Position numbers and translations under genes: made by a program. The notes beneath the pieces are model-generated. The model ran no database searches. It saw nothing but the letters and a program-made list of their open reading frames with translations, and was not told where the DNA came from. Below, piece by piece: positions 14,557 to 62,975 of a stretch of DNA of 64,000 nt. The stretch's first letter is position 1; every line of letters starts with the position of its first letter. Source of the stretch: Patescibacteria group bacterium UBA926. GTDB lineage: Bacteria > Patescibacteriota > Doudnabacteria > UBA920. Location of the stretch: positions 34,479-98,478 of the forward strand of contig DBDS01000004.1 of the NCBI GenBank assembly GCA_002293685.1, given 5' to 3'.

Positions 14557-14582
14557 CATCATAAACCAGAATTTGTTTATGA

Positions 14583-21764: not shown

Positions 21765-21806
21765 ACTCTACCCCGATTTGTGCGGCCGCACAAATCGGGG
21801 TAGAGT
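21765..21806. repeat. 42-bp perfect palindrome (second copy of the GCGGCCGC-core hairpin) between convergent genes
   Basis: ACTCTACCCCGATTTGTGCGG|CCGCACAAATCGGGGTAGAGT. Its 36-bp core is identical to 192-227. Confidence 0.9.
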
Positions 21807-25700: not shown

Positions 25701-26654
25701 ATGACAATAGATACTCTTAAAAGTTTATTAAAACACTATGGTCTAAATCCTAACAAGACATACGGTCAGCATTTTTTAATGGACGAAACAATTCTTGAAG
25801 ACATGGCTGATGTTGCTGATGTTAAAGCGGGGGATATGGTTGTAGAAATCGGACCAGGGATTGGTAACTTGACTGAAATTTTGTTAAAGCGAGAAGCAAC
25901 TGTTTTATCAATTGAAAAAGATGAACAGTTTATAAGAGTTCTTCGCACGCTTTCAAAGCAATACAAAAATTTTGAGTATGAGTTAATTGATGCATTGAAA
26001 TTTAATTTCTCCTCTTTCCTGTCATCCCCGGGCGAGCGTAGTGAGAACCGGGGATCCACTAGTGGGTCCCGGCTAGCCCGCGCGACTTCGTCCGCCAAAA
26101 TCTCTACGAGATTTAGGCGGACTTCGTCGCTTGTAGCTGCCGGGAAGACACCACAGTATAAAGTTGTCGCCAACATTCCTTACTACATCACTGGGAAAAT
26201 TGTTCAATTGTTTTTGAAGCAGGAGCATAAACCAAAAAGCATGACATTGCTTATGCAGAAAGAAGTTGCTAACAATATTGTTGCGAAAGTTGGACAACTA
26301 AACTTGTTAGCAATTTCTGTACAACTATATGGCGACGCAAAATTAGTTACAAAAGTTCCTGCTTTTAAATTTCATCCGGCTCCAAAAGTTGAGAGCGCAG
26401 TTATTCATATCGAATTATTTTCCAAACCAAAATATAAATTGAAAGACGAGCAAAAGTTTTTTCGAGTGTTGCGCGCTTGCTTTGCAGGGAAGCGAAAGCA
26501 AATCCATAACACACTGACAAATAATTTAGGACTAGAAAAAACTGTTGCATTGCAAAGTTTGGAAAATATAAATGTTGACCCAACGGCAAGACCACAGCAA
26601 CTAACAATCGAACAATGGATTAAGTTAGTAGACTCAATTGAATTGCCAAATTAA
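25701..26654 (+). CDS. rsmA: 16S rRNA (adenine1518/1519-N6)-dimethyltransferase RsmA/KsgA with ~44-codon in-frame GC-rich insert
   Basis: Contains GQHFLMDE, VVEIGPGIGNLT and YKVVANIPYYITG motifs. It is 317 aa versus ~270 for typical KsgA. The insert lies between FNF and YKVVANIPY. Confidence 0.9.
   Translation: MTIDTLKSLLKHYGLNPNKTYGQHFLMDETILEDMADVADVKAGDMVVEIGPGIGNLTEILLKREATVLSIEKDEQFIRVLRTLSKQYKNFEYELIDALKFNFSSFLSSPGERSENRGSTSGSRLARATSSAKISTRFRRTSSLVAAGKTPQYKVVANIPYYITGKIVQLFLKQEHKPKSMTLLMQKEVANNIVAKVGQLNLLAISVQLYGDAKLVTKVPAFKFHPAPKVESAVIHIELFSKPKYKLKDEQKFFRVLRACFAGKRKQIHNTLTNNLGLEKTVALQSLENINVDPTARPQQLTIEQWIKLVDSIELPN
26019..26150. repeat. GC-rich palindromic element E6 inserted in frame in rsmA
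   Basis: TGTCATCCCCGGGCGAGCGTAGTGAGAACCGGGGATCCACTAGTGGGTCCCGGCTAGCCCGCGCGACTTCGTCCGCCAAAATCTCTACGAGATTTAGGCGGACTTCGTCGCTTGTAGCTGCCGGGAAGACA. It is homologous to 53002-53039, 57601-57679 and 14583-14657. Confidence 0.9.
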
Positions 26655-26667
26655 AATTTATTCCTGT

Positions 26668-26782
26668 TGTCATCCTGAGCGTAGCGAATGATCTAGTTCC
26701 GAGATTCTTCGGCTTTGCCTCAGAATGACATTTGGCACTCCGCATTTGAGTTAAAAATGATCCCGGGTCTCAGCCCGGGATT
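26668..26782. repeat. GC-rich palindromic element E7 (12-bp termini TGTCATCCTGAG / CTCAGAATGACA) plus GATCCCGGGTCTCAGCCCGGGATTT hairpin
   Basis: The element sits in the convergent intergenic region and probably doubles as a bidirectional terminator. Its reverse complement is homologous to the gatB insert at 60733-60822. Confidence 0.85.
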
Positions 26783-30422: not shown

Positions 30423-30546
30423 AAATTTAAAAATACCGTCGTTCGAAGCAATTCGGGCGGCGGTTTTTTGTTCACAGATTTAGCTTGGAGTTTGAGATGT
30501 GTATGTGGTATAATATTTACAAGATTTAGCGGTTAAAACACATTCT

Positions 30547-33500: not shown

Positions 33501-33930
33501 TAATGTTCGCATGCAGGTTATGTCAGAGGTAAGTTATCTTAATAAACAAAGCAATAACTTGGCGTTATCCAATGCCACCAAAATGGATGCTGAAACAGGT
33601 AGTCTGAGATTAGCCACCTTAGAAGAACAAGCCAAAAAGGTAAATGGATTCTTAGAGTCAAGAAATCCTAATGATTTATCAAATCTTAAAGCTGATCAGG
33701 TAGTTAGGGAAAGAGAAGATGGTAAGAATGAAATTTTTGGTGGTTATGTAAATGCAATGAAAAAGCATATGGAAAGTTTGTCTGCCATAGAATTCGATAA
33801 ATATGTTCCTAAAATTCCTACCAATGTAGCAAAAAAGGTGGCTAATGCTACTAACTTTGGAGATTTTAATCCACAAGGCACTGCGATAGGAAATAAGATT
33901 CAACAAGCTTTTAAGGATCGTGGGAAATAA
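30547..33930 (+). CDS. giant polytopic membrane protein, VirB6/TrbL-like candidate with long charged C-terminal tail
   Basis: 1127-aa ORF with about 7 TM helices in residues 280-560 and a K/E-rich coiled-coil C-terminus. It lies next to the VirB3/VirB4-like genes. Confidence 0.4.
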   Translation: MTTKQTSNFLNFLLKFLKQNLHKRSKRIVLAFDKLRRIVLASLVAFLFVPVVGYAQGPLPPSQTPPINPTPTNSSTCDLTRLSDANAKADYVFAPSENTPINPEQVFQIGVKISNITDQQLAAACYQSQNLKISAKFYLYQCLPLLDYIACSQATGPALSEGILEGTGKVIKDSSGTAIGIGGVFAPMKLTDIMKTRITGAPFDFSITNTILNNYYVYVYPEVLISDMNKVEVPFNDTYAFWRQVTVSAPVGSPGAVPPEFAPETENTANPGAAGTLFNFIRSVIAYIVLLLTSFIYYIFSIILVPVLVALLQIQAYKDNFVNFIYPGWVIIRNISNILFIIALLWIGLRTLFQVDDASKSRSFIVRLILMALLVNFSLVIGQAIVGIADTVQAQFLPKDSRVVEALGHKLMVDPIITFRGGADLDASGNFTSNSFASDLPKAIILLVLAVAAFFAFVALIAFIFVRLGMLWLLYMLSPLAYVAQILPETKEYGKKWFTEFLRYAFVVPILAFFLNMTALIAVTFSRTSGDQVQVEGSGTTALGGLVPTGDAAAGIVEFAVTVMSHFIVLVFLFGGMAFAQKFGGVGSKQIVSFAKKGFDAVTKRPAMWAARGAGNLAKSYGKEQYERKIAGGLLDPKAWKEGWKGRISTETNTQKSNRLLKKDGKLNPGIATQYMGTSLKYLFHKMTFGAPHRLLSEADRLKEQASIFTENERLAKEVKLGENQSVKQIYDAFKTGIPETGPINVAGLLGSLGTQITDFENQGNLKADNLEIEANTLEANGNMSGAAAKRAEAASVLQEYEDKVKELNKVKDKLDPATNGGVDVNSDPGLRKQISNDLEKSIEELAKNIEDSQKQIKDNNVLKQKYGVTGDLPESERERLRKQAESLEQKASERKLPESLAIRALLREGQKKEMEKYDGVDDPDELIAIHKKAMKDNNLLLATAIQKKLAKEGFFKDLLQSEGGRNNIESMQAFFAKNLKGMAPNVRMQVMSEVSYLNKQSNNLALSNATKMDAETGSLRLATLEEQAKKVNGFLESRNPNDLSNLKADQVVREREDGKNEIFGGYVNAMKKHMESLSAIEFDKYVPKIPTNVAKKVANATNFGDFNPQGTAIGNKIQQAFKDRGK

Positions 33931-34972
33931 AAACCTTATGCAATCAATAGATATGAGCACAATCAAAGATATTATCGCAACAAATGATGTCAGGGAGGCT
34001 GTCAGATTGTTGGTATTTTTAAAAAAATCTCCAAAGATTGAAATTGATCAAAATTTATTGATGCAACTTCAGTATGTACGAATGAATAGCTTAACCCCAT
34101 CTCGCCTATTAGATTTATTAAGAGCATCTGTATTAGCTTGTTATTCAATCCCAAATTCATTGCTTAGTGAGAAATTGAAGGAATACTTAATTCAACTTGA
34201 TAGTGTTCCAGAAGAAATTGATTTTTTTGAAAAATTTATAAAGTTATTGGAAACTGACGAAGAGTTGATTGCTAATTCAAAACTGGTTGTAAAAGGTCAG
34301 CCATTTATACCGTCAATTAAGAATTTTATTGCGGACTTTAATTCTTCTACAAATGATTTTTCAAATAAAGATGCTTTGGTGGAAATTCGATACTTCTCTA
34401 ATTCTCCTTATATCAATTCTTTGCCTGAGGAAAGAAAGTTCATAGCAAGGGATATTATAAAAAGTTATAATTATGCTAAATCATCATTGCAAGAGTGGAA
34501 TAGTATTCCTGAAATAAAATCTCCCGAAGAGAAAGCCAATATATTAAAGAACTTTGATTTATACAAGGCAATTCCGTGGTTAGAAGAATATTTAGAGGAA
34601 GAGATAGAAAATGAATCACAGACAGTCGCTCCGAAAACAATTTTTCAAACATCTCAGCCTACACAATCAACTCAAGTTACTCAACCTGTACAATCACAGC
34701 GGGTTATCCGAAATAACACACCACCTGTGGGGACAGACACTCAACAAGCAAAAATCGACCGTAATTTACAAGTGGGTTCAGATGAGAATGAATTTAAAAT
34801 CCCGCAACAACGAGATTTAGACTTGTCCCGTCAAGCAAAACGAGGATTAGTGTTTGATGAGCCAACTAATGTCGATTTAACGGAAGTCGCGAAACGTCGA
34901 GAAGAGGAACTAAAAAAACAAAGAGCTATCGATGAAAAATTAAACGCTCTTAAACAGCGTAAGCAGAAATAA
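33920..34972 (+). CDS. hypothetical protein
   Basis: 350-aa ORF overlapping the upstream stop. No motif recognised. Confidence 0.4.
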   Translation: MGNKNLMQSIDMSTIKDIIATNDVREAVRLLVFLKKSPKIEIDQNLLMQLQYVRMNSLTPSRLLDLLRASVLACYSIPNSLLSEKLKEYLIQLDSVPEEIDFFEKFIKLLETDEELIANSKLVVKGQPFIPSIKNFIADFNSSTNDFSNKDALVEIRYFSNSPYINSLPEERKFIARDIIKSYNYAKSSLQEWNSIPEIKSPEEKANILKNFDLYKAIPWLEEYLEEEIENESQTVAPKTIFQTSQPTQSTQVTQPVQSQRVIRNNTPPVGTDTQQAKIDRNLQVGSDENEFKIPQQRDLDLSRQAKRGLVFDEPTNVDLTEVAKRREEELKKQRAIDEKLNALKQRKQK

Positions 34973-34973
34973 T

Positions 34974-35780
34974 ATGTCAGATCCAGTAAAAATTCAAAAG
35001 CTTACAAACTTGGTGGAAACCTCTACTATACTAAATGCTCAGGAAAAATCCGAGTGGCTTGCTTTGATGCAACTGATGAACGATAAGCAACTCTCAGAGC
35101 TTGAAGAAATTTTGAAGCCTGCCGCACCGAGCGTTACACCTGTTAGTAACAATAATCAAACTCAAGGTGTGAGCACACCTCCTTTGTCGCACATTAGCAA
35201 TCTACCTAGTCAGATGGTCGACCCGAGAATTAAGGCACGGCCTTTGGAGATGTTTCATTCCTCACAACCGGCTAAGCCAGCTGTGAAAACTCCAGTTCAA
35301 TCACCTCGCGTTCCTGAGCCACGACCACAGCCTAGAGTTCAAGCACCATCTCCTGTTATCTCTAAAGCTCAACCAATTACTCAACCAGTGCCTGTTGTTA
35401 GCTCACCTCAGAAACCACTTCAGACAGTTGCACCAAAGCCTGCATTTAACCCGGAGCCTGTAACCCCACCTACTCATGGACAAGTCAAAGTGGCACCGAC
35501 AATTCAATTAAGCTCGCTGGATGAAGCAAGTACATTAACATCCGCCGCGCTTCACGAGCAAACCAGGGAAGGTTTTTATAAGGCCATTATTGGTCTGGCA
35601 GAACAATTCGGTTATTTTCAAGTTTTATCCCAATTAGAACTAAGTCCTCTATATAAAGATTATTTGGTTTATGGAAAAGTAAGATTAAATGGTGGTCCGG
35701 ATGATAATTTACCTCTTTCACAAGAGGAGTTTGAGTTTGTTGCAGATTTGTTGACGGCGTTAAAAATTAACCGCGTTTAG
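34974..35780 (+). CDS. hypothetical proline-rich protein
   Basis: 268-aa ORF with a P/Q/V-rich central region. Confidence 0.4.
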   Translation: MSDPVKIQKLTNLVETSTILNAQEKSEWLALMQLMNDKQLSELEEILKPAAPSVTPVSNNNQTQGVSTPPLSHISNLPSQMVDPRIKARPLEMFHSSQPAKPAVKTPVQSPRVPEPRPQPRVQAPSPVISKAQPITQPVPVVSSPQKPLQTVAPKPAFNPEPVTPPTHGQVKVAPTIQLSSLDEASTLTSAALHEQTREGFYKAIIGLAEQFGYFQVLSQLELSPLYKDYLVYGKVRLNGGPDDNLPLSQEEFEFVADLLTALKINRV

Positions 35781-35893: not shown

Positions 35894-36349
35894 ATGCAAT
35901 TTCCTGTCCCACAATTTACCGACGTCGAAGATAAAATTATCGCAGGTCTAACCTTTAAACAATTCGCGATAGTTTTTGGGGCAGCTGTTTTCACTTTCAT
36001 AATTTATACAATCAGCAAAAACTTACCAATTACTATCGGAGTAGCAGTTTTTACAGGCATACCAGCACTCGCATTAGTGTTTGGAAAGTTGAATGGCCGC
36101 CCTTTATACTCTAGTGCTGGAAATTTTGTTCAATATCTTTTTGGCCCCAAAGTTTATATTTACCATAAAGAGGGAAAAGATTTTGGCTCAGAGTATACTC
36201 CAATTATAGTTGAGGAAAAAGTTGCACCTAAAGACTTGAAACAAACTGCTGTGAAAATCAAAGAACTAAATTATGTTTTGCAACAACAACAATCTGAGCA
36301 ATCAAAGTTAATAGATATGATTAAGCAAAACCGCGAACAATCTAAATAA
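35894..36349 (+). CDS. small two-TM membrane protein, PrgI/VirB3-like candidate
   Basis: 151-aa ORF with two adjacent TM helices, immediately upstream of the VirB4 N-domain gene. Confidence 0.4.
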   Translation: MQFPVPQFTDVEDKIIAGLTFKQFAIVFGAAVFTFIIYTISKNLPITIGVAVFTGIPALALVFGKLNGRPLYSSAGNFVQYLFGPKVYIYHKEGKDFGSEYTPIIVEEKVAPKDLKQTAVKIKELNYVLQQQQSEQSKLIDMIKQNREQSK

Positions 36350-36357
36350 ATAGTTCC

Positions 36358-37041
36358 ATGGAAACCAAAAGCAAAAAAACAGTCGGCTCACCAACTCAGC
36401 AATTTCTAAAGCTCTCAGAGATTAGAGATGATTTAATCGTGATGAACGATGGAACATTGCGCGCGGTACTCGCTGTTTCTTCAACGAACTTTGACTTGAA
36501 GAGCGAAGAAGAACAGAACGCTCTAATCTATAGTTATCAAAGATTTTTGAATTCTTTAGAGTTTCATATTCAAATTGTTGTTCAATCTAGAAAAATGGAT
36601 ATTGCCGAGTACATGAGCAAGCTAAAAGTTTTAGCCGAAAAGCAAACCAATGAGTTACTTCGAATGCAAACCCAGGAGTACATCGAGTTCATTGATCGTT
36701 TGGTTGAATCGGCCAACGTAATGAACAAAGATTTCTACGTAATCGTTCCTTATACTACCAGCATTACCCCAGCGTCCACTGGAATATTTGGAAAGTTATT
36801 TGGTACAGGCCAATCTAAGCAAGTAGCCGATAGGGAAGCTAATCTAGCAAACGGTCGCAAGCAACTTGATGAGCGAGCAAATACTGTAGCCGCATCCTTA
36901 TCTAGTAGCGGTTTGCGCGTGGTTAGACTGGGAACTGATCAATTAATCGAACTTGTTTATAATTCTTATAATTTTGCAGCTGGCCCAAGCATAGATGCTA
37001 GTCAATTAGAAAAAGTTACTATTAAAGACTTACGAAATTAA
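36358..37041 (+). CDS. VirB4/TrbE/CagE N-terminal domain protein (first part of a split VirB4)
   Basis: The pattern LSEIRDDLIVMNDGTLRAVLAVSSTNFDLKSEEEQ resembles the VirB4 N-terminal domain. The stop at 37041 is followed 2 nt later by the ATG of the ATPase ORF. Confidence 0.5.
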   Translation: METKSKKTVGSPTQQFLKLSEIRDDLIVMNDGTLRAVLAVSSTNFDLKSEEEQNALIYSYQRFLNSLEFHIQIVVQSRKMDIAEYMSKLKVLAEKQTNELLRMQTQEYIEFIDRLVESANVMNKDFYVIVPYTTSITPASTGIFGKLFGTGQSKQVADREANLANGRKQLDERANTVAASLSSSGLRVVRLGTDQLIELVYNSYNFAAGPSIDASQLEKVTIKDLRN

Positions 37042-37043
37042 TT

Positions 37044-38891
37044 ATGTCTTTATTTTCAATCAATAAATCAGAATTAGATAAGAAAAAGTCCGAACTCGAG
37101 CATCTTAAAGGTCAAATTTCTGCTGACAGTAAGCTAGTTGAAGTTGAAAAGCAGTACCGTGAAGGTGTTACAACTCTGCGTGATTTACTCGCACCTGCTT
37201 CACTAAAATTTACTAATTCTTATTTCGAACTTAACGGCAAATTTGGTCGTAGCTTTTTTGTACTCGCATATCCACGATTCCTATCCTCAAACTGGCTTTC
37301 ATTTATTATCAATTCCGAGAGTGCTTTAGACGTTTCGATGTACATTTATCCAATTGATTCTGGGATGGTACTAAAAAAGCTTAAGAGTAAGATTGGAGAA
37401 ATTGGTTCACAGATTACGATTGAGCAAGAAAAAGGCCTTGCTCGAAATCCACTTTTAGAAACTGCTTATCACGACGTAGAAGAACTTCGAGATGAACTTC
37501 AGCAAGGCACAGAGCACTTCTTCCGTTTTGCATTGTACTTCACTTTGTATTCAGATTCTTTGGATGAGTTAGATAAAAACTCGAAAATTTTAGAAAGCGC
37601 ATTGGGTGCAAAGTTAGTTGTGACTAAACGCGCATTGTTAGCTGTTGAAGCAGGATTTAATTCTACTTTACCTTTAGGTGTAGACGAATTAGATGTGGCG
37701 AGTAATTTAAACACCAGTCCGTTGTCGAGCACTTTTCCATTCGTGTCTTCAGATTTAACTGGAAACGACGGAATCCTTTATGGAATCAATCGTCATAACA
37801 ACAGTTTGATTTTGTTTGATAGATTCCAAATGGAGAATGCTAATTTTGTGATTTTTGCAAAATCTGGAGCAGGAAAATCTTATGCTGTTAAATTAGAAAT
37901 CCTTCGTTCGTTGATGGTCGGCATTGATGTAATAGTCATTGATCCAGAAAATGAGTATCAGCATTTGGCAGAAGCTGTTGGGGGTACTTATATTAATATT
38001 TCTCTTAACTCAGATTTCCGAATTAATCCTTTTGATTTACCGATTGGCATGGAAGATGAAGACAAAGCAGATATTTTACGCAGCGCCGTTATTAATTTAG
38101 TGGGTTTGATGGGATTGGTTTTAGGTAAACTCGATCCAACCGAAGAAGCGATACTAGACAAAGCTCTCTGGGCAACATATGCCAAAAAAGATATCACTGA
38201 AAATTCTGATTACGCCACCGTTGAAATGCCAATTATGAGTGATCTAATCGAAGTTTTAGCAGGAATGGTTGGGGGTGAGAGCTTGGCGCAACGCTTAGGT
38301 AAATTTACCGAAGGAACTTTTGCAGGATTGCTTAACAATCAAACCAACGTAGTTTTAAAAAATCAATTGTTAGTATTTTCGATTCGAGATTTAGAAGATT
38401 CGCTTCGCCCAATCGCGATGTATATTATCCTTGGTCATATATGGAATGTGGTTCGTAGTGAACTTAAAAAACGAATTATGGTTTTGGACGAAGCTTGGAT
38501 CATGATGCAACATGAAGACTCAGCTCGTTTCGTATTTGGTATCGCTAAGCGTGCGCGTAAGTATTACTTGGGTCTTACCACAATCACTCAGGACGTCGCT
38601 GATTTTATGGCCAGTCCATATGGAAAACCAATTGTGACTAATTCTTCAATTCAATTGCTTCTTAAACAAAGCCCTGCCGCAATTGAAATTGTGCAAGAAA
38701 CTTTTTTCCTTACTGAAGGAGAAAAATATTTGTTGCTCGAAAGTGATGTGGGAGAAGGAATTTTCTTCGCTGGATTAAAGCACGCTGCAATAAAAATTTA
38801 TGCATCGTATGTTGAAGACCAAATTATTACAACCGACCCGAAACAATTATTAGAAATCGAACAAAGTAAGGAAGAATTATCTGAGCAGTAA
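37044..38891 (+). CDS. virB4: VirB4-family type IV secretion ATPase (C-terminal/ATPase part)
   Basis: Walker A FAKSGAGKSY, Walker B VLDEAW, and VirB4-specific regions. Confidence 0.8.
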   Translation: MSLFSINKSELDKKKSELEHLKGQISADSKLVEVEKQYREGVTTLRDLLAPASLKFTNSYFELNGKFGRSFFVLAYPRFLSSNWLSFIINSESALDVSMYIYPIDSGMVLKKLKSKIGEIGSQITIEQEKGLARNPLLETAYHDVEELRDELQQGTEHFFRFALYFTLYSDSLDELDKNSKILESALGAKLVVTKRALLAVEAGFNSTLPLGVDELDVASNLNTSPLSSTFPFVSSDLTGNDGILYGINRHNNSLILFDRFQMENANFVIFAKSGAGKSYAVKLEILRSLMVGIDVIVIDPENEYQHLAEAVGGTYINISLNSDFRINPFDLPIGMEDEDKADILRSAVINLVGLMGLVLGKLDPTEEAILDKALWATYAKKDITENSDYATVEMPIMSDLIEVLAGMVGGESLAQRLGKFTEGTFAGLLNNQTNVVLKNQLLVFSIRDLEDSLRPIAMYIILGHIWNVVRSELKKRIMVLDEAWIMMQHEDSARFVFGIAKRARKYYLGLTTITQDVADFMASPYGKPIVTNSSIQLLLKQSPAAIEIVQETFFLTEGEKYLLLESDVGEGIFFAGLKHAAIKIYASYVEDQIITTDPKQLLEIEQSKEELSEQ

Positions 38892-38898
38892 AACCTTA

Positions 38899-39055
38899 GT
38901 CATTCTGAACAAAGCAACTTCATCATTCTGAGCTCTTCGAAGAATCTACCTCTGTCATTCTGAAGCCGTAGGCTGAAGAATCCAATAATTAGAGATCCTT
39001 CGCTTCGCCCGCCAAAATCCCTTTGAGATTTAGGCGGATTACGCTCAGGATGGCA
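38899..39055. repeat. GC-rich element E8: three tandem GTCATTCTGA(A/G) sub-units plus a CGCCAAAATCCCTTTGAGATTTAGGCGGA module
   Basis: Read directly from the sequence. The CGCCAAAATC...GAGATTTAGGCGGA module also occurs inside the rsmA insert at 26085-26125. Confidence 0.85.
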
Positions 39056-41238: not shown

Positions 41239-41283
41239 AAATACTATACACAAAATTTTATATTATCCTTGGCTTAACTAAGT

Positions 41284-41376
41284 ATCCCCGGCGAAGGCCG
41301 GGGCCTACATCACAGATCCCGGATCGCCTTTGGCGTCCGGGAATACTTTTTTTGTCATCTCAGCGTCTGGGAATAC
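41284..41376. repeat. GC-rich palindromic element E9 (ATCCCCGGCGAAGGCCGGGG ... ATCCCGGATCGCCTTTGGCGTCCGGGAAT ... TGTCATCTCAGCGTCTGGGAAT)
   Basis: Homologous to the segment at 62717-62790 inside miaA. Confidence 0.85.
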
Positions 41377-45915: not shown

Positions 45916-46023
45916 GTTTATTTTGCAACCCTTCGCTAAAGCTATGGGTTGCACACTTCGCTATTGTGATTTATTGGCTTGCCACACGAAGCCTTCTTGC
46001 CATCCGAAGGATGGGGCGAAGTG

Positions 46024-46111
<88 letters not shown>

Positions 46112-46550
46112 ACGTCGTACTTGTCTCCGAGCTTTCGGTACAGGCTAAAGCCTGTCCCTTACGCTCTCCATCAAGTACTCCTCTCACATTCACGCTTAAC
46201 CTCGCTATCGCTCGGCCCAAGTGTGAATGTGGTAAACTCACTTTCTTGGTCGCGGATACGGCAAGCCGTCCCGCTCCTTGTTCGCACTGGCGAAGCCAGA
46301 CGCTCACATGCTAAAGAATATTGTTGCCCTACGGGCATCTAAGATAAATCTAAATTGTGGATACTGTAAGTAGGACCTCCCTAACTACACTGTCTAAATG
46401 ACTCTACTATTATAACATTTTACCAAACTAAATCAAAAACGAGCCGTACTCTAGAATTGGCTCGTTTTTTGTTGGGTTTCGATTTCTGGTAGTACTATCA
46501 TTTCTGGATGGACGCCCACTTGGACTCAACTGGGCGTAGACCAAAAAGGA

Positions 46551-48297: not shown

Positions 48298-48505
48298 GAT
48301 TATAGACGTGGGTTTAGTTGTTTTGTTACAGAAGGTCCTGAAACACTGCTGATTATGTATATTTTATCACAAAGCAGTAGTATTTAGGCAAAATAAAAAC
48401 CCTTTTGGGATTGTTTTAGATTTCTGGATTTAAAGCGAAGGATTCTTTGAATCCCTCTACAAAACCGAAAGAGGTTTTTCATCCACAAAGTGAATAAAAA
48501 ACCTC

Positions 48506-48598
<93 letters not shown>

Positions 48599-48810
48599 TC
48601 GTCGCAACAACCTCCATCCGTTCAAATTTGGCTAAAGCCAAATTTTCACTAGTTCCGGTGTTGCTCCTCTCACATTCACGCTTAACCTCACTACGCTCGG
48701 CCCAAGTGTGAATGTGTCAAATTATTAATACAGTCGCGGATGCTGCAAGCGGCCCCGCAGATATGTATCAATAACTCACTCATTTTACTGCAAAAGTGGT
48801 CATTGGTCAA

Positions 48811-49565: not shown

Positions 49566-49673
49566 TGTCATTCCTGGGCGCGAGCGGAGTGGGCGAACCG
49601 GGAATCTATTAAAGTGACAAGCTGATTTAGTGGATCCCCGGTTCTCACCCTACGGGTGAGCCCAGGGATGACA
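49566..49673. repeat. GC-rich palindromic element E10 with 13-bp termini TGTCATTCCTGGG / CCCAGGGATGACA
   Basis: 108-bp unit in AT-rich intergenic DNA, with internal palindromes CCGGTTCTCACCCTACGGGTGAGCCCAGG. Confidence 0.9.
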
Positions 49674-57679: not shown

Positions 57680-59195
57680 TTATAGCATGAACTACGAAGA
57701 ATTATCTCTCGCTGAGTTGCGGGAAAAATTGGATAACAAAGAAGTTTCGTCAGTCGAACTGACGAACTATTTTTTGGCGCGAATCAAAGAGCAGAATCCG
57801 GAGCTCAATGCGTTCATTACAATTACTGAACAAGAAGCGTTAGAACAAGCAAAAGAAGCTGATGAATTTATAAACTCACCAGGCGACAACTTTCCACTAA
57901 CAGGAATTCCTTTTGCAGCGAAAGATTTATTTTTAACTAAGGGTATTCGTACAACAGCAGCTTCAAAAATTTTAGATAACTATATCCCGCCGTACGACGC
58001 AACTGTAATTGCAAAACTGAAAGAGCAGAAAGCAGTGTTGCTTGGTAAAGCGAACATGGATCAGTTTGCGCATGGCTCATCGGGTGAAACATCTGCTTAT
58101 GGCGCAACCAAAAATCCGTGGGACAAAACTCGTATGCCTGGCGGTTCTTCTTCGGGTAGTGCTGCTGCAGTGGCTGCGGGGCTTGCTCCTTGGGCTTTAG
58201 CTACAGAAACAGGCGGCAGTATTCGCCAACCTGCTTCGTTAACCGGCGTAAGTGGTTGGAAACCAACTTATGGCCGTGTTTCGCGATATGGAGTAGCGGC
58301 GATGGCTTCAAGTTTGGACAGCATGGGCGCTATGGCTACAAGCGTAAAAGATTTGGCAATGATTGCCGAAAGTATTTCTGGTCATGATCCAAAAGATGGC
58401 ACAACTGGAGAGCGTGAAGTTCCTGCTTACTCAAAATTACTGGACGCAAATATCAAAGGAATGAAAATCGGTGTGCCTAAAGAATATTTTGTTGATGGAA
58501 TGGAAGCAGGGGTGCGGGAAGCTGTCGAGAAGGCAATTGAAGAAATAAAAAACTTAGGTGCAGAAATTGTTGAGGTTAGTTTACCAAACACAAAGTACGG
58601 TTCGCTTGTTTACGCAATCGTATGTCCAAGCGAAGTATCTTCAAACCTAGCTCGTTACGATGGAATTCGTTACGGCCATTCCACATCTGAAGGCGGCAGT
58701 TTATTAGATGTGTACCAGAAAAGCCGCGCGGAGGGCTTTGGTGACGAAGCCAAACGCAGAATTATGACAGGTACTTACGTTCTTAGCGCGGGCTATTACG
58801 ATGCTTATTACAAAAAAGCGCAGCGCGTGCGTCGTAAGATTTTAAATGAATTCGAAGAAGTTTTTAAGCGGGTAGATATTTTACTTGCACCATCAAGTCC
58901 GAATGTTGCTCAGCCTTTGGGGAACGCCGCGAGTGATCCATTGTTTGGATATATCGCCGATCAATTAAACATCCCAGCTTCATTGGCAGGTTTGCCTGCA
59001 TTGTCGTTGCCGTGTGGTTTTGCTTCCCCTCCTTTCCAAGGAGGGGTGGCCGAGTCCGCGACAGCGGGCGAGGACGGGGTGCTACTTCCAGTTGGACTTC
59101 AAATCATCGGTCCGCAATGGGGCGAACAAAAAGTTTTTAATGTTGGATACGCTTATCAGCAAGCAACTGATTGGCATACTAAGAAAGCAAAATAA
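57675..59195 (+). CDS. gatA: Glu-tRNA(Gln) amidotransferase subunit A with ~18-codon in-frame hairpin insert
   Basis: Amidase signature GGSSSGSAAAVAAGL, with catalytic Ser/Lys context. The true start may be Met at 57687. Confidence 0.95.
   Translation: MTYSMNYEELSLAELREKLDNKEVSSVELTNYFLARIKEQNPELNAFITITEQEALEQAKEADEFINSPGDNFPLTGIPFAAKDLFLTKGIRTTAASKILDNYIPPYDATVIAKLKEQKAVLLGKANMDQFAHGSSGETSAYGATKNPWDKTRMPGGSSSGSAAAVAAGLAPWALATETGGSIRQPASLTGVSGWKPTYGRVSRYGVAAMASSLDSMGAMATSVKDLAMIAESISGHDPKDGTTGEREVPAYSKLLDANIKGMKIGVPKEYFVDGMEAGVREAVEKAIEEIKNLGAEIVEVSLPNTKYGSLVYAIVCPSEVSSNLARYDGIRYGHSTSEGGSLLDVYQKSRAEGFGDEAKRRIMTGTYVLSAGYYDAYYKKAQRVRRKILNEFEEVFKRVDILLAPSSPNVAQPLGNAASDPLFGYIADQLNIPASLAGLPALSLPCGFASPPFQGGVAESATAGEDGVLLPVGLQIIGPQWGEQKVFNVGYAYQQATDWHTKKAK
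59037..59090. repeat. in-frame CCCCTCCTTTCCAAGGAGGGG hairpin element in gatA
   Basis: Perfect 8-bp stem. The insert encodes ASPPFQGGVAESATAGEDG between the conserved CGF and LPVGLQIIG. It is homologous to 62155-62215 in miaA. Confidence 0.85.
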
Positions 59196-59669
59196 ATGAA
59201 CAAGCCTTCAGCGATTACTAAAGGTATATTTATAATCTTAATGCTACTAATTGCAGCGTTTGCTTTATTGCCTTTATACTTGATTAAGCAAAACGTAACT
59301 GCTTTGGTTGATGGTCGTCAAATAGTAGGCGAAGTCATGAATGTTCAGACCCAGATTACTGGCAGTTGTTTTTCAGAAGTTGACTGCCGTTCAGATGTGA
59401 TTAAGCAGATAAAGTATTTTGATGATAATGGGAATGAACAGTTTTTTACAACTTCAGCTTATAGTAGTGTTTCTTTTCTGGGATTGTTTGATGAGGGTGA
59501 TAAAGTGAATTTAGTGGTGATTAATGAGGATTTTAGTAGTATTCAAGTGTATCTACCTTTTGTAACATGGGCTTACATTTTTCTACTTCTTGTGATTGTT
59601 GCTCTGGCTGTTAAAGGAGCAATTGCATTTTTACATCACAACAAGAACATACAAGGTAATCAAATATGA
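59196..59669 (+). CDS. hypothetical two-TM membrane protein inserted between gatA and gatB
   Basis: Overlapping stop/start codons on both sides (translationally coupled). Confidence 0.45.
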   Translation: MNKPSAITKGIFIILMLLIAAFALLPLYLIKQNVTALVDGRQIVGEVMNVQTQITGSCFSEVDCRSDVIKQIKYFDDNGNEQFFTTSAYSSVSFLGLFDEGDKVNLVVINEDFSSIQVYLPFVTWAYIFLLLVIVALAVKGAIAFLHHNKNIQGNQI

Positions 59670-61252
59670 ACTTAAACGGATACAAACCAGTTATCGGACT
59701 CGAAATCCACGTACAGCTTGCAACCAAAAGCAAGATGTTTTCTAGCGCGCCTAATAATCCTGACGAAAAACAGCCAAATACTAATATAGACGAAGTCGTT
59801 ACGGCGGAACCGGGAACTTTGCCGGTGCTTAATAAAGAAGCGGTTCGTCTTGGGGTGATGGTGGGTTTGGCTTTAAATTGCGAAATTCCTGAATACTCAA
59901 AATTTGATCGGAAACATTATTTCTATCCAGATTTACCGAAAGGTTATCAGATTTCTCAGTACGATGAACCAATTGCCTTAAACGGTTGGGTAGAAATTTT
60001 GGTACCAACAAATGGGGAACGCGATGCTTACACTAAACGCATCCGCATCACCCGCGCACACTTGGAAGAAGATGCTGGTAAAAACATGCACCCAGAAGGT
60101 TTGCCATATTCGCTCGTTGATTACAATCGAGCCGGTAGTCCGCTTTTAGAAATTGTCACCGAACCAGATATAGAAACTGCCGAAGAGGCGCGCATCTTCT
60201 TGCAGGAATTACAAAGAATTGTTCGCTATGTCGGAGCGAGCTCTGCTGATATGGAAAAAGGCACAATGCGTTGTGAGCCAAACATTTCAGTTCGCAAACC
60301 CGGAGAAGAAAGCTTGCCAAAATACAAGGTTGAAGTGAAAAACATCAACAGTTTTAAATTTGCGGAAGCAGCAATCAATTACGAAATTCCTCGTCACATC
60401 GAAATGCTTGAAGCAGGTGGCATGCCAAAGCAAGTCACGATGGGTTGGAATGAGAAAACTAACAAGACTGTTGAACAACGCAGTAAGGAAGAAGCAAATG
60501 ATTATCGCTATTTCCCCGAACCAGATTTAGCGCCAATGCGTTTTACAAAAGAATTTCTTGATGAACTGCGGGGAGATTTACCTGAATTGCCATCACAAAA
60601 GCGCGTGCGTTTCAAACAAGAGTTTGCTCTTGATGAATCTGTAATCGAAACTTTACTAAATTGGAAAGACCTCAATGAATATTTTGAGGATGTTGTTAGT
60701 GAGATTGACGCTTGGATAATTACTGACTCCAGTGTCATTCTGAGTGATAGCGAAGAATCTCAATCATCAGATCCTTCGGCTTCGCCTCAGGATGACGGGA
60801 AAGAGATCTCTCAGGATGACGGAAAAAGAGCGAGATTAATCAAAGCGGCGGCGAATTGGTGCATTCAAGAATTTTCAGCTTTACTAAATGCCGACTTGGC
60901 AAACCCAAGTGACTCAAAAGTTTCAGCAGAAAATATGGCTGAACTTGTAAAGCTAATTGACGCTGGAAAAATTTCTGGTTCAGCAGCGAAGCAAGTATTT
61001 AAAAAGATGTATGAAACTGGCGGTGAGCCAGACCATATAGTAGAAGAACTTGGCTTGTCACAGGTTAGTGATGAAGGAGCAATTGAAACTGCAGTAGACG
61101 AAATCATCGCTGCAAATCCGAAAGCCGTAGAGGATTACAAAGCTGGTCAACAAAAATCGTTCGGCTTCTTGGTAGGGCAAGTGATGGCGGCCATGAAAGG
61201 AAAAGCTAATCCACAAGTGGTTAACGAAATTTTAAAAGAGAAATTATCATAA
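59666..61252 (+). CDS. gatB: Asp/Glu-tRNA amidotransferase subunit B with ~30-codon in-frame insert before the C-terminal YqeY-like domain
   Basis: Conserved N-terminus MNLNGYKPVIGLEIHVQL and the GatB/GatE catalytic core. Confidence 0.95.
   Translation: MNLNGYKPVIGLEIHVQLATKSKMFSSAPNNPDEKQPNTNIDEVVTAEPGTLPVLNKEAVRLGVMVGLALNCEIPEYSKFDRKHYFYPDLPKGYQISQYDEPIALNGWVEILVPTNGERDAYTKRIRITRAHLEEDAGKNMHPEGLPYSLVDYNRAGSPLLEIVTEPDIETAEEARIFLQELQRIVRYVGASSADMEKGTMRCEPNISVRKPGEESLPKYKVEVKNINSFKFAEAAINYEIPRHIEMLEAGGMPKQVTMGWNEKTNKTVEQRSKEEANDYRYFPEPDLAPMRFTKEFLDELRGDLPELPSQKRVRFKQEFALDESVIETLLNWKDLNEYFEDVVSEIDAWIITDSSVILSDSEESQSSDPSASPQDDGKEISQDDGKRARLIKAAANWCIQEFSALLNADLANPSDSKVSAENMAELVKLIDAGKISGSAAKQVFKKMYETGGEPDHIVEELGLSQVSDEGAIETAVDEIIAANPKAVEDYKAGQQKSFGFLVGQVMAAMKGKANPQVVNEILKEKLS
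60733..60822. repeat. GC-rich element E14 inside gatB (TGTCATTCTGAG...CCTCAGGATGACGG...CTCAGGATGACGG)
   Basis: Homologous to the reverse complement of the intergenic element at 26668-26730. It encodes SVILSDSEESQSSDPSASPQDDGKEISQDDG. Confidence 0.85.
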
Positions 61253-61814: not shown

Positions 61815-62975
61815 TCACCTTAGGAGCTTTTTGGCAAGGGTGATTAACTCGTCTGGTGAATCGGACCAATGAATATCTTTATTCCGTTTCCACCAAGTTA
61901 GTTGACGTTTGGCGTATTGTCTAATGGATATCACTGACAGTTCCTGCATTTGTTTGGCAGTAATTTTATTCTGCAAAAACTGAGCTGTATATTTATATTC
62001 TAATCCGAAGCTTTCAAATCTTTTCCAAGATACACCATTTTTGTGAAGCGAACTTACTTCATCGATCATACCGCGCTTTAACCAAGACTTCATTCGTTTA
62101 CTGATTTTACCTTCTAATACTTCCATGGATGGGTTTATTCCTAACCAAAGTGTCGACCACCCCGTCTTCGCCTTCGGCGAATCCACCCCTCCTTGAAAAG
62201 GAGGGGAGAGCAAAGGCACAGGTTTGCCAGTTGATTTAACAATTTCAATTGCTCGTATCAGACGGTGAGGATTTTTTTCATCAATAGTTTTTGCACGTTC
62301 CGGGTCTAGCTTCATAAGCATCTTAAACATCTCAGTAGTGCTGAGTTTAGATAATTTTGCTCGGAGTTTCAAATCAGGTTTGACTTTTGGAAATTGTTGA
62401 TTGAATGCAACTGAATCAATCCAGTGCATAGTGCCGCCGCAGAGGATTGGTAGCTTACCGCGTTTTAAAATATCCGAAATTATTTTATGTGCCTTTCGCT
62501 GAAATTTCTCTGCGGAATATTGTAGCTTTGGATTAGCTTCATCAATTAAGTAGTGGGGAATTGATTTGTAAATAAAGACTTTTTTGGAAATAGATCCTTC
62601 GACTCGCTTCGCTCGCTCAGGATGACGTGGAGTAGATCCTTCGACTCGCTTCGCTCGCTCAGGATGACGTGGAGTAGATCCTTCGACTCGCTTCGCTCGT
62701 CCGTGAATACTAGATGGGATAGCAGTATCCCCGGCGAATGCCGGGGTCTGTAATGTAGATCCCGGATAGCCCTGCGGGCTTCCGGGATGACTGGAAAATG
62801 GAACTGTCATCCATTTTCCAGTCACTTTCCCGCTTCCAATATCTAGCCCACGATAAATTTGTCGGCTGTCTGCCGAAATAATTTCACCATTAAATTTCTT
62901 GGCTAATTTAACAGCCAATTCACTTTTTCCACTAGCTGTTGGACCGACAACAATTACGAGCTTTGGTTTGTTCAT
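61815..62975 (-). CDS. miaA: tRNA dimethylallyltransferase MiaA carrying two in-frame GC-rich inserts (~85 extra codons)
   Basis: P-loop VIVVGPTASGKSELAVKLA and ISADSRQIYRGLDIGSGK, then a long insert before the conserved SIPHYLID. It is 386 aa versus ~300 aa for typical MiaA. Confidence 0.9.
   Translation of the reverse strand: MNKPKLVIVVGPTASGKSELAVKLAKKFNGEIISADSRQIYRGLDIGSGKVTGKWMTVPFSSHPGSPQGYPGSTLQTPAFAGDTAIPSSIHGRAKRVEGSTPRHPERAKRVEGSTPRHPERAKRVEGSISKKVFIYKSIPHYLIDEANPKLQYSAEKFQRKAHKIISDILKRGKLPILCGGTMHWIDSVAFNQQFPKVKPDLKLRAKLSKLSTTEMFKMLMKLDPERAKTIDEKNPHRLIRAIEIVKSTGKPVPLLSPPFQGGVDSPKAKTGWSTLWLGINPSMEVLEGKISKRMKSWLKRGMIDEVSSLHKNGVSWKRFESFGLEYKYTAQFLQNKITAKQMQELSVISIRQYAKRQLTWWKRNKDIHWSDSPDELITLAKKLLR
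62155..62215. repeat. in-frame CCCCTCCTTGAAAAGGAGGGG hairpin element in miaA (homolog of the gatA insert)
   Basis: Its reverse complement CCCCTCCTTTTCAAGGAGGGGTGG...GACGGGGTGG aligns with 59037-59090. It encodes LSPPFQGGVDSPKAKTG. Confidence 0.85.
62591..62823. repeat. complex GC-rich insert in miaA: 42-bp tandem repeat x2.4, a homolog of intergenic E9, and a GACTGGAAAATGG...CCATTTTCCAGTC hairpin
   Basis: TAGATCCTTCGACTCGCTTCGCTCGCTCAGGATGACGTGGAG is repeated head to tail (62591-62700). The next segment, 62717-62790, is ~80% identical to 41284-41344. Confidence 0.9.

What the first reader, a model, noticed from the sequence alone, without database searches (positions are those of the whole stretch)
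62155..62823. miaA carries a complex insert: an in-frame 42-bp tandem repeat, a copy of an intergenic element, and a separate hairpin element
Seen in sequence:
- The MiaA ORF is 386 aa, about 85 aa longer than typical MiaA.
- Between the P-loop region and the SIPHYLID block lie 2.4 copies of a 42-bp unit (TAGATCCTTCGACTCGCTTCGCTCGCTCAGGATGACGTGGAG; 14 codons).
- These are followed by a ~75-bp segment that is ~80% identical to the intergenic element at 41284-41344.
- A second hairpin (62155-62215) sits nearer the C-terminus.

Inference: this is a hotspot where elements have inserted within elements. The tandem expansion suggests replication slippage inside an already-inserted element.
Basis: seen in the sequence. 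Interest (0 to 1): 0.7.

Follow-up and report, generated by a model that had tools for sequence, protein, structure and literature searches.

The report
Palindromic REP repeats inside miaA
The tRNA-modification gene miaA of this tiny Candidatus Doudnabacteria (Patescibacteria) genome has been invaded, in frame, by clusters of small GC-rich palindromic repeats of a known kind (CGTC/TGTC-tagged REPs, relatives of the Rickettsia palindromic elements). The unusual part is that the first repeat is always joined to the gene through a conserved hairpin whose other arm is the gene's own coding sequence.

Summary
miaA (61815-62975, minus strand) is an intact 386-aa ORF, 85 aa longer than its 301-aa syntenic relatives, because of two in-frame GC-rich inserts (+74 aa and +11 aa net). 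The inserts are modules of a dispersed hairpin family. Its anatomy (unpaired TGTC/CGTC tag, 8-bp stem starting with AT, tail CCA) matches the published CGTC-tagged REP superfamily, which includes Rickettsia RPE-4/6 and Neisseria dRS3. Copies lie in intergenic DNA and in frame inside gatA, gatB, ksgA, recX and ileS of the same window.

- **Gene status:** the MiaA core is under purifying selection (dN/dS about 0.05). It models as a normal MiaA fold, with the inserts as disordered loops.
- **Tandem array:** the 42-bp array is polymorphic, with 2.6 copies in 21 contigs and 3.6 in a related genome.
the left junction is a 16-bp hairpin that pairs the host codons V-x-G-x-W with an inverted copy of them. 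It recurs and covaries in 8 lineages.
- **Wider distribution:** the core 25-mer occurs across most bacterial phyla.

The transposition mechanism, and whether each insert was gained or lost in a given lineage, remain unresolved. I classify this as a new variant of a known kind.

The parts
61815..62975 (-). miaA coding sequence, 386 aa, intact, carrying two in-frame inserts.
   Evidence: ORF. Pfam IPPT 7e-56 and IPT. dN/dS of the core is 0.05 and 0.044 against L008 and L011. The AF2 core has pLDDT >90. Foldseek TM 0.84-0.85 to MiaA-tRNA complexes 2zm5 and 3foz.
62580..62810 (-). Insert 1: residues 56-132 (77 aa) replace a 3-aa beta-turn of the relatives (net +74 aa, 222 nt).
   Evidence: DNA alignment with empty sites in L008 and L011. 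The basal state of this loop is 3 aa in most Patescibacteria MiaA. AF2 places it at the tip of beta-hairpin E54-58/E131-136, with pLDDT 34-54.
62787..62825 (-). Junction hairpin H1. The 16-bp stem is GTGACTGGAAAATGGA (host codons V-T-G-K-W) / TCCATTTTCCAGTCAT, with a 7-nt loop. The 3' arm runs into the GTCAT head of the first REP.
   Evidence: -25 kcal/mol, z = -7.3, 0/200 shuffles. It is present in 8 lineages: 8 of 15 pairs change on both sides, 85.8% of cells are paired against 33-46% when slid, and 0/500 shuffles reach the observed values. The minimal version is in L260.
62758..62791 (-). REP module: (A)GTC-ATCCCGGA-[AGCCC GCA GGGCT A]-TCCGGGAT-CTA.
   Evidence: -22.1 kcal/mol, z -5.3. Tag, AT-stem and tail anatomy.
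62724..62787 (-). Two-hairpin composite (the REP above plus hairpin CCCCGGC-ATTC-GCCGGGG at 62729-62746). It is a copy of the intergenic composite at 41281-41342.
   Evidence: 78% identity over 64 nt. Both copies fold, with different inner stems.
62591..62716 (-). Head-to-tail array of the REP GTCATCCTGAGCGAGCGAAGCGAGTCGAAGGATC plus an 8-nt spacer TACTCCAC (42 nt = 14 codons). Full copies lie at 62593-62626 and 62635-62668, and a 5'-truncated copy at 62677-62698. It encodes RHPERAKRVEGSTP repeats.
   Evidence: TRF period 42, 2.6 copies, 100% matches. One more copy in L007/P0121, giving 400 aa. An independent 33-nt tandem duplication sits at the same site in L013.
62148..62213 (-). Insert 2: residues 255-276 (22 aa, against 11 aa in relatives). 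It holds hairpin CCCCTCCTT-TTCA-AGGAGGGG (62186-62206) and hairpin TTCGCC-GAAG-GCGAA (62167-62181). The second hairpin is flanked by the direct repeat CCACCCC (62157-62163 and 62183-62189).
   Evidence: The same element type in the same orientation and frame (SPPFQGGV) is found in gatA at 59025-59089. The same site is occupied by CCCTCCC..GGGAGGG elements in L012 and L013.
41281..41342 (+). Intergenic member of the same two-hairpin composite.
   Evidence: (z -4.25).
60734..60822 (+). In-frame REP dimer (tags outside) plus a partial copy, in the inter-domain linker of gatB (30 aa).
   Evidence: Absent in L008, L011 and L012. An orthologous-looking 87-nt copy is present in L013.
59025..59089 (+). 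In-frame CCCCTCC..GGAGGGG-type element in gatA (22 aa).
   Evidence: Absent in L008 and L011.

Best explanation
**What it is**
- miaA carries two clusters of REP-type palindromic repeats of the CGTC/TGTC-tagged superfamily: unpaired tag NGTC, an 8-bp stem beginning with AT, a variable and often nested interior, and a tail CCA/CTA.
- This repeat population is spread through the Doudnabacteria genome and sits mostly between genes.
- It survives inside essential genes only where the insert keeps the reading frame and falls in a permissive surface loop. In MiaA those loops are the tip of a beta-hairpin after the G-K-V-x-G-x-W motif, and the loop returning from the tRNA-clamping domain.

**How the gene copes**
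- The inserts are transcribed and translated into disordered, Gly/Ser/Pro/Arg/Glu-rich loops. The enzyme core stays functional.
- The encoded peptide is incidental. The same DNA element is read in different frames and orientations in different genes and lineages.

**How it changes over time**
- Once resident, a cluster evolves in place. The 42-bp unit (REP plus spacer) was amplified head-to-tail by slippage or unequal exchange, and still varies in copy number.
- The junction hairpin H1 is most likely a product of intra-strand template switching (quasipalindrome-type templated synthesis). This would be nucleated by complementarity between the REP head (T/A)GTCAT and the host GTG(AC) codons, and would copy the conserved upstream codons in inverted orientation and keep the two arms matched.

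**Shown**
- Identity and anatomy of the repeats.
- In-frame presence or absence between genomes.
- Copy-number polymorphism.
- Purifying selection on the core and an intact fold.
- H1 and its covariation.

**Inferred**
- Translation of the inserts.
- Slippage as the amplification mechanism.
- Template switching as the origin of H1.
- The way the repeats move: no transposase was found, as for published CGTC REPs.
For: **Family anatomy**
- 7600 reads TGTC-ATCCCCGC-GAAG-GCGGGGAT-CCA, and 3983 reads TGTC-ATCCCGGG-CTCGA-CCCGGGAT-CCA.
- The detector's 21 hits (a few are AT-rich false hits) have mostly TGTC tags, 8-bp AT-starting stems, and tails CCA (8) or CTA (3).
- These match the published definition of CGTC REPs (PMC3733652).

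**Dispersed population**
- 15 perfect GC hairpins against about 0.8 in shuffles. Eleven lie in the 16% of the window that is non-coding.
- In-frame copies occur in ksgA, recX, ileS, gatA, gatB and miaA.

**Empty sites and repeat density**
- Syntenic L008 and L011 have empty sites.
- Those loci are REP-poor: 0.5 and 0 hairpins per 10 kb, against 4.0 in the window region.

**Functional gene**
- dN/dS is 0.05 and 0.044.
- Catalytic motifs are invariant.
- AF2 gives a core pLDDT >90 and 34-54 for the inserts.
- Foldseek TM is 0.84-0.85 to 2zm5 and 3foz.

**Peptide not conserved**
- The same element reads RHPERAKRVEGS in the window and VILSERSESKDP in L012. It is read in reverse as DPSASPQDD in gatB, and in frame 2 in ksgA and recX.

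**Copy number**
- 386 aa on 21 contigs against 400 aa in GCA_022842405.1, which has two extra SNPs.
- A separate 33-nt tandem duplication is present in L013.

**H1**
-.
- It is not a general property of the repeat family: 0 of about 500 other copies have a flank hairpin.
Against: - No direct evidence of transcription or translation of the inserts.
- No mobilising enzyme was found. There is no transposase, HUH or recombinase Pfam hit among window ORFs of at least 110 aa. Only 64 kb of an approximately 850-kb genome was seen.
- No target-site duplication was recognised, and junctions are locally diverged.
- Interiors are much longer and more nested than the 4-5-nt loops of the published families. 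Clusters and head-to-tail arrays are described there as rare or negligible.
- The constant 9-nt spacing between the H1 arms, and partly similar loops, in distant lineages fit one old origin with maintenance better than repeated de novo template switches.
- The gatB insert has the same 87-nt architecture in the window and in L013, but is absent from L008, L011 and L012. Precise loss or allele transfer therefore cannot be excluded.
Confidence: 0.75

Rival explanations
1. **Nucleic-acid-guided, site-specific (homing-like) insertion.** The REP unit carries, or acquires, an arm complementary to the conserved codons V-x-G-x-W. It uses this pairing to land repeatedly at the same codon of miaA, which would explain the hotspot.
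For: - Occupied sites are scattered among relatives that have the basal 3-aa turn.
- The stem always ends at the host GTG paired to the CAT/CAC that starts the REP.
- Stems are perfect, 12-16 bp, in distant lineages whose host codons differ: GGA/TCC, GGT/ACC, GGC/GCC, AAT/ATT, ACA/TGT, GAA/TTC.
Against: - The arm changes with the host sequence, so it cannot be a fixed guide carried by the element.
- Other copies of the family show no such flank pairing (0 of about 500).
- Site 2, gatA and gatB are also recurrent sites without an H1-like hairpin.
- No enzyme candidate was found.
Confidence: 0.12
2. **One ancient insertion, with H1 kept by selection for a function.** H1, alone or with the REP hairpins, would be an RNA or DNA structure acting in cis. 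Possible roles are modulating translation or mRNA stability of miaA, or acting in replication or recombination. Empty sites in relatives would be precise secondary losses.
For: - Covariation: 8 pairs change on both sides.
- The 9-nt arm spacing is constant, and the last loop bases are similar in 6 of 8 lineages.
- L258 and L259 are close relatives with homologous loops and one compensated change.
- The gatB insert looks orthologous between the window and L013 (80.5% identity, against 76.7% for the flanks).
Against: - Losses would have to restore exactly the ancestral 3-aa and 11-aa loop lengths many times.
- Stems have decayed in L012, L013 and L259.
- Biased template-switch correction can produce the same covariation without any function.
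- No Rfam family matches.
Confidence: 0.15
3. **The inserts are not translated.** They would be removed or skipped, either by intron-like excision or by programmed translational bypassing, as for the mitochondrial 'byp' elements or T4 gene 60.
For: - A stable hairpin (H1) sits exactly at the upstream junction and includes a GGA codon. This superficially resembles a take-off site.
- GC-rich mobile hairpins that are bypassed are known in yeast mitochondria (my own knowledge, not checked here).
Against: - Every intragenic insert examined keeps the frame and is stop-free. In this window these are 222, 33, 87 and 54 nt (plus a 264-nt version of insert 1 in L007).
- Two independent tandem units are 42 and 33 nt, both multiples of three. 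Bypass or splicing would not require this.
- There is no stop codon after the putative take-off, and no matched landing codon that would preserve the invariant W55.
- No intron or ribozyme family was detected.
Confidence: 0.04
4. **Artefact or dead gene.** The cause would be a miscalled start, a collapsed or chimeric assembly at repeats, or a decaying pseudogene.
For: - These are metagenome-assembled genomes.
- One short contig (L256) starts inside H1 with a divergent first 40 nt, as expected where assemblers break at hairpins.
- NCBI annotates the protein only as 'hypothetical'.
Against: - The gene is identical in six independent assemblies that were checked (0 mismatches), and 21 contigs carry it.
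- The ORF spans both halves of a conserved single-domain-architecture enzyme.
- dN/dS is about 0.05.
- Homologous inserts occur at the same sites in many other assemblies.
Confidence: 0.03

Closest known systems
CGTC-tagged REPs (Di Nocera, De Gregorio & Rocco 2013, PMC3733652), which include Rickettsia conorii RPE-4/RPE-6 and Neisseria dRS3
   Same: - Unpaired tag CGTC, often TGTC.
- Stem of 8-9 bp whose first two pairs are A-T.
- 3-nt tail, usually CCA.
- Dimers with the tags outside.
- Mostly intergenic, but with in-frame intragenic copies and clusters encoding tens of residues.
- No dedicated transposase known.

Window copies at 7600-7625 and 3982-4006 fit stem 8 / loop 4-5 exactly.
   Different: - A new phylum (Patescibacteria). 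The paper lists 5 phyla.
- Most copies have long, nested or GA-mismatched interiors instead of 4-5-nt loops.
- Clusters and head-to-tail arrays are common here, but rare or negligible in the paper.
- A strong recurrent hotspot in one gene, with a host-pairing hairpin.
Rickettsia palindromic elements (RPE-1 and relatives), 'selfish DNA in protein-coding genes' (Ogata et al. 2000; my own knowledge, and as cited in PMC3733652)
   Same: - Palindromic repeats inserted in frame in housekeeping genes of a reduced genome.
- Tolerated at surface positions.
- Patchy among relatives.
   Different: - RPE-1 is a longer unit (100-150 bp) that is itself conserved as a peptide-coding module.
- Here the units are 25-50 nt, combinatorial, and read in several frames.
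REP/REPIN-RAYT systems (GTAG-tagged REPs mobilised by Y1 HUH transposases)
   Same: Short hairpins with a conserved unpaired tag, inverted doublets, and clustering into mosaics (BIME-like).
   Different: - The tag is TGTC/CGTC, not GTAG.
- No RAYT was seen in the window.
- A separate 36-nt perfect palindrome with CTAC...GTAG ends (192-227 and 21768-21803) may be a GTAG-type element in the same genome.
Bacterial MITEs inserted in genes (e.g. Coxiella QMITEs, PMC5896051; review PMC10969869)
   Same: Small, non-autonomous, inverted-repeat elements that can add peptides to proteins.
   Different: No target-site duplication, and no separate terminal inverted repeats flanking a unique core, were recognised in the window copies. 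The cross-phylum doublets of the 25-mer do look MITE-like.
Coding palindromes in Nematomorpha mitochondrial genes (PMC6649704), and quasipalindrome template-switch mutagenesis (Ripley; Lovett laboratory; my own knowledge)
   Same: A long, near-perfect inverted repeat inside a functional coding sequence, with one arm being conserved coding sequence. Templated correction offers a way to keep the arms matched.
   Different: Here there is one short hairpin (15-16 bp), tied to a REP insertion. Its second arm encodes an unconstrained loop.

Membership tests
CGTC-tagged REP superfamily | Unpaired terminal tag CGTC (TGTC or CCTC variants allowed) at one end. | tested here: met
   Detector hits in the window carry TGTC (15), AGTC (5) and CGTC (1), including a few AT-rich false hits. 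The tandem-array and gatB copies read C-GTC. Definition taken.
CGTC-tagged REP superfamily | Stem of 8-9 bp whose first two positions are complementary A-T. | tested here: met
   The outer stem is 8 bp of the form ATCCCNGG/CCNGGGAT in 3983, 7600, 26021, 49634, 53003, 57628 and 62759. In the 25-mer type the AT-NNN stem covaries: 64 of 77 non-CCT variants are complementary, in 9 other pair types.
CGTC-tagged REP superfamily | Loop of 4-5 nt. | tested here: inconclusive
   Met by 7600 (GAAG) and 3983 (CTCGA). Most other copies have 13-33-nt interiors with further hairpins or tandem G.A pairs.
CGTC-tagged REP superfamily | 3-nt unpaired tail, consensus CCA. | tested here: met
   The tail is CCA in 8 GC-rich copies and CTA in 3.
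CGTC-tagged REP superfamily | Dimers with tags outside (HH) predominate; head-to-tail arrays negligible; clusters rare. | tested here: not met
   HH dimers exist (gatB 60734-60796, 26669-26729, 49567-49672, and the cross-phylum doublets). However, the miaA array, 38899-38990 and gatB contain head-to-tail copies, and clusters are frequent (14580-14738, 26013-26150).
REPIN/RAYT (GTAG REP) system | GTAG tag and an associated RAYT (Y1 transposase) gene flanked by the repeats. | tested here: not met
   The tag is not GTAG. No Y1_Tnp or any transposase Pfam hit was found in window ORFs of at least 110 aa.
MITE | Terminal inverted repeats plus target-site duplication; related autonomous IS. | tested here: inconclusive
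   No consistent direct repeats at filled versus empty sites. The only candidate is the ATTT(T)CCA repeat flanking insert 1, and it overlaps H1. No IS was seen.
Rickettsia palindromic element RPE-1 type | Unit of about 100-150 bp, conserved as sequence and as peptide, inserted in frame. | tested here: not met
   Units are 25-50 nt and are read in at least 4 frame/orientation combinations. In-frame insertion itself is met.
Programmed bypass elements (byps) / introns / inteins | The insert is absent from the mature protein. Signs would be take-off/landing codons, ribozyme or splicing motifs, or intein blocks, with no need to keep the frame. | tested here: not met
   All inserts are in frame and stop-free. 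There are no Rfam hits and no intein domains in Pfam. Removal at the RNA or protein level cannot be tested with these tools.
Coding-region VNTR (slippage-prone tandem repeat) | Head-to-tail identical units, length a multiple of 3, copy number varying between strains. | tested here: met
   TRF reports 42 nt x 2.6 copies at 100% identity. L007 has 3.6 copies.

The most novel reading that the evidence does not exclude
H1 may not be a mutational by-product. It could be part of how this REP type finds or holds its place. In that reading, a small palindromic repeat is installed next to a conserved coding motif through base pairing with that motif, in a guided or microhomology-primed, homing-like insertion without a dedicated nearby enzyme. 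The resulting host-element hairpin is then maintained. This would make miaA codon 55 a specific 'address' reused across Patescibacteria. It would also give the first mechanistic handle on the orphan, pan-bacterial CGTC/TGTC REP superfamily.
Probability: 0.15. Interest if true: 0.85.

Novelty: new variant of a known kind. Interest (0 to 1): 0.6.

Why it matters
1. **Selfish repeats in minimal genomes.** Even approximately 0.85-Mb, streamlined CPR genomes carry an active-looking population of selfish palindromic repeats. These remodel essential proteins: six housekeeping genes are affected in 64 kb.
2. **Annotation.** Such inserts degrade annotation. This MiaA is 'hypothetical protein' at NCBI. 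They also inflate the apparent novelty of CPR proteins. Recognising the GTCAT...ATC(C/T)A signature lets them be masked.
3. **Breadth of the family.** The core 25-mer GTCATCCTGAGCGNAGCGAAGGATC, with a covarying stem, was found in genomes of many bacterial phyla and in viral contigs. That is far beyond the 5 phyla reported for CGTC REPs, and no mobilising enzyme is known.
4. **Study system.** The host-pairing hairpin H1 is a compact natural case of either templated (quasipalindrome) mutagenesis inside an essential gene or guided insertion. The 42-bp array is a ready strain marker.

Tried and rejected
- **Rfam.** A gathering-threshold search of the window and 17 loci, and an E-value search on 62100-62900, gave no family for any hairpin.
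- **Literature.** Searches on CPR plus palindromes, Patescibacteria plus REP, and the raw sequence motifs returned nothing specific; the motif hits were only unrelated primers.
- **Metagenome scan for more copy-number alleles.** The pattern CCATCTAGTATTCACGGAC found a single unrelated chance match.
- **Is the inverted copy of the upstream flank a general property of the repeat family?** Rejected: 0 of 25 Doudnabacteria, 1 of 211 genome and 0 of 265 viral copies have a flank stem of at least 9 bp.
- **Enlarging the H1 sample.** A profile search of 1.84 billion representatives returned mostly N-terminal fragments. It added one clear case (P0124) plus other REP types at the same site.
- **Transposase in the window.** None found.
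- **Target-site duplications and a fixed target motif.** GTGAC occurs at or near the gatB and miaA sites, but only in about half of the lineages. Inconclusive.
- **Intein, intron or bypass.** Considered and set aside because of strict frame conservation.
- **The L256 contig-end variant of H1.** Treated as unreliable.
Full report
**1. What is there**

The window has 40% G+C and comes from a Patescibacteria genome. The identical MiaA protein is deposited as a 'hypothetical protein' of a Patescibacteria group bacterium, and the nearest named relatives are Candidatus Doudnabacteria.

ORF 61815..62975 on the minus strand encodes 386 aa. Pfam IPT matches residues 5-52 and IPPT matches 137-364, leaving about 84 residues unmatched between them.

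Tandem Repeats Finder reports 62591-62699 with period 42, 2.6 copies and 100% identity. Local G+C rises to 0.55-0.65 in 62130-62220 and 62610-62820. Segment 62724-62787 is 78% identical (50/64) to intergenic 41281-41342.

**2. The inserts are real, and the gene is alive**

- The exact protein is on 21 contigs. In six loci fetched from independent ENA, JGI and NCBI assemblies the 1161-nt gene has 0 mismatches to the window.
- Syntenic loci of two relatives (L008, L011; MiaA 87% and 81% identical over shared columns) encode 301-aa proteins. They lack both inserts cleanly.
- Excluding the inserts, dN/dS is 0.05 and 0.044. The P-loop, DSRQxY, CGGT and other motifs are invariant across 121 homologues.
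- AlphaFold2 with that alignment gives pLDDT >90 for the core. Residues 60-125 score 34-54 and residues around 255-270 score 52-75.
- Insert 1 sits at the tip of a beta-hairpin (strands 54-58 and 131-136). The model superposes on the E. coli MiaA-tRNA complexes with TM 0.84-0.85.
- In S. epidermidis MiaA (3d3q), residues 58 and 60 flank the position of insert 1.

**3. What the inserts are made of**

Read on the coding strand, insert 1 consists of:
- a hairpin H1 (described in section 6);
- the REP (A)GTC-ATCCCGGA[AGCCCGCAGGGCTA]TCCGGGAT-CTA;
- a spacer;
- the hairpin CCCCGGC-ATTC-GCCGGGG;
- a spacer;
- a 5'-truncated copy and then two full copies of GTCATCCTGAGCGAGCGAAGCGAGTCGAAGGATC, each followed by TACTCCAC.

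Insert 2 is CCCCTCCTT-TTCA-AGGAGGGG followed by TTCGCC-GAAG-GCGAA. The second hairpin is flanked by the 7-nt direct repeat GGGGTGG on the coding strand.

The same kinds of module are scattered through the window. There are 15 perfect GC-rich hairpins against about 0.8 expected, and 11 of them lie in the 16% non-coding DNA. In-frame copies are present in:
- ksgA (47 aa);
- recX (16 aa);
- ileS (18 aa);
- gatA (22 aa, SPPFQGGV as in miaA insert 2);
- gatB (30 aa).

GatA and GatB of L008 and L011 lack them. Those loci are poor in such hairpins overall, at 0.5 and 0 per 10 kb against 4.0.

**4. Which known family**

The copies share an unpaired NGTC tag (mostly TGTC), an outer 8-bp stem that starts with AT, and a tail CCA or CTA. 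For example, 7600 reads TGTC-ATCCCCGC-GAAG-GCGGGGAT-CCA.

This is the definition of the CGTC-tagged REP superfamily of Di Nocera et al. (PMC3733652):
- the tag CGTC is often TGTC;
- stems are 8-9 bp with AT in the first two positions;
- loops are 4-5 nt;
- the tail is CCA;
- dimers with the tags outside predominate;
- intragenic copies are known;
- no dedicated transposase is known.

The superfamily includes R. conorii RPE-4/6 and Neisseria dRS3.

Differences here are the long nested interiors, the frequent clusters and the head-to-tail arrays. No Rfam family matches. No transposase was found in any window ORF of at least 110 aa.

**5. Breadth of the family**

A scan of one genome per species with GTCATCCTGAGN{4,30}CGAAGGATC stopped at its 120-locus limit. 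The hits came from:
- Chloroflexota, Acidobacteriota and Bacteroidota (including cultured Hymenobacter);
- Bacillota, Planctomycetota, Omnitrophota, Gemmatimonadota and Nitrospirales;
- Cyanobacteria, Rickettsiales and Legionellaceae;
- Saccharibacteria, Komeilibacteria and Moranbacteria.

The viral collection also hit the limit.

The commonest form is the 25-mer GTCATCCTGAGCG-N-AGCGAAGGATC. In variants, the three stem pairs after GTCAT covary: 64 of 77 are complementary, in nine other pair types. Many copies form inverted doublets with the tags outside, and these fold into long hairpins. Most lie outside long ORFs (133 of 167).

**6. The junction hairpin H1**

On the coding strand, GTGACTGGAAAATGGA (codons V-T-G-K-W) is followed after 7 nt by TCCATTTTCCAGTCAT, whose end is the head of the first REP. 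Folding gives -25 kcal/mol and z = -7.3.

The same architecture is found in miaA of other lineages, with arms that follow the local host codons:
- L014: GGGTAAATGGAA/TTCCATTTACCC;
- L257: GTGGAAGGCAATTGG/CCAATTGCCTTCCAT;
- L258: GTGACAGGAACATGG/CCATGTTCCTGTCAT;
- decayed versions in L259, L013 and L012;
- L260, the minimal form: host arm, 9-nt loop, CCATTTTCCA, then the canonical 25-mer.

On the 8-lineage alignment, 8 of 15 pairs change on both sides. 85.8% of cells pair, against 33-46% when the partner is slid, and no shuffle out of 500 reaches the observed values.

At protein level this shows as G-x-W...P-y, with y the reverse-complement codon of x: K/F, N/I, T/C, A/C and Q/L.

The feature is specific to this site. 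About 500 other copies of the family have no such flank hairpin.

**7. Hotspot and history**

In a neighbour-joining tree of 121 MiaA sequences, the basal loop lengths are 3 aa (site 1) and 11 aa (site 2). Sequences with REP-derived peptides (HPERSEGS-like at site 1, LPSPxEGRVREG-like at site 2) are scattered among them. Other Patescibacteria also carry REP peptides at site 1.

The same element is read in different frames in different lineages. L013 has its own 33-nt tandem duplication at site 1.

A close relative of the window genome (L007, GCA_022842405.1) has one more 42-nt copy plus two substitutions, giving 400 aa.

Gain versus loss is not settled. The gatB insert has the same 87-nt architecture in the window and in L013 (80.5% identity, against 76.7% for the flanks), but is absent from L008, L011 and L012.

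**8. Reading**

- **Best explanation (0.75).** These are in-frame clusters of CGTC/TGTC-tagged REPs, tolerated as disordered loops and evolving in place. The array arose by slippage. H1 arose through intra-strand template switching nucleated by the REP head pairing with the host GTG(AC).
- **Rivals.** Guided homing-like insertion (0.12); an ancient insertion with a selected H1 function (0.15); removal or bypass of the insert (0.04); artefact or pseudogene (0.03).
- **Not shown.** Translation of the inserts, the slippage mechanism, the origin of H1 and the mobilising activity are inferences, not demonstrated.

Noticed in passing
window 59196-59669 (between gatA and gatB); L007:13401-15392; L008:12967-14571: The space between gatA and gatB is highly variable. 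The window has a 157-aa ORF, L007 a 663-aa ORF and L008 a 534-aa ORF, and L011 has nothing. None of these ORFs has a Pfam hit.
   Followed up: partly
window 192-227 and 21768-21803: Two identical copies of a 36-nt perfect palindrome, CTACCCCGATTTGTGCGGCCGCACAAATCGGGGTAG. Its ends are CTAC...GTAG, so it may be a GTAG-type REP dimer coexisting with the TGTC-tagged family.
   Followed up: no
Genome-contig loci L015-L134; viral loci L135 onward: The 25-mer GTCATCCTGAGCG-N-AGCGAAGGATC has a 5-bp stem, tandem G.A pairs and a GCGNAGC mini-hairpin. It occurs in many bacterial phyla and in viral contigs, often as inverted doublets 20-110 nt apart. It has no Rfam family and no paper was found for it.
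   Followed up: partly
window 46012-46277 and 48500-48761: Two tRNA-Ser genes (anticodons TGA and GCT) are each followed by about 150 nt of similar sequence (85-100% identity in blocks), 2.5 kb apart.
   Followed up: no
window 3083-3172 (in ORF 2541-3191): A 21-nt in-frame tandem repeat (4.3 copies) encodes a Gln/Ala/Pro/Gly-rich stretch in a protein with no Pfam hit.
   Followed up: no
window 35894-38891: A PrgI-family protein and a TraG/VirB4-like P-loop ATPase lie next to several large ORFs without Pfam hits (28446-35780). This may be a type IV secretion or DNA-uptake-like cluster.
   Followed up: no
L256:1-45: A 3.2-kb JGI contig begins inside H1 with a divergent sequence (GTGCCGGGAAAATGGAGACAAGTTCGTTTTCCC) that still pairs (GGGAAAA/TTTTCCC). 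It is either a real allele or an assembler break at the hairpin.
   Followed up: partly
window 9475-9860 and 11878-12315: tmRNA (Rfam, 112 bits) with smpB nearby. ARAGORN did not report the tmRNA.
   Followed up: no
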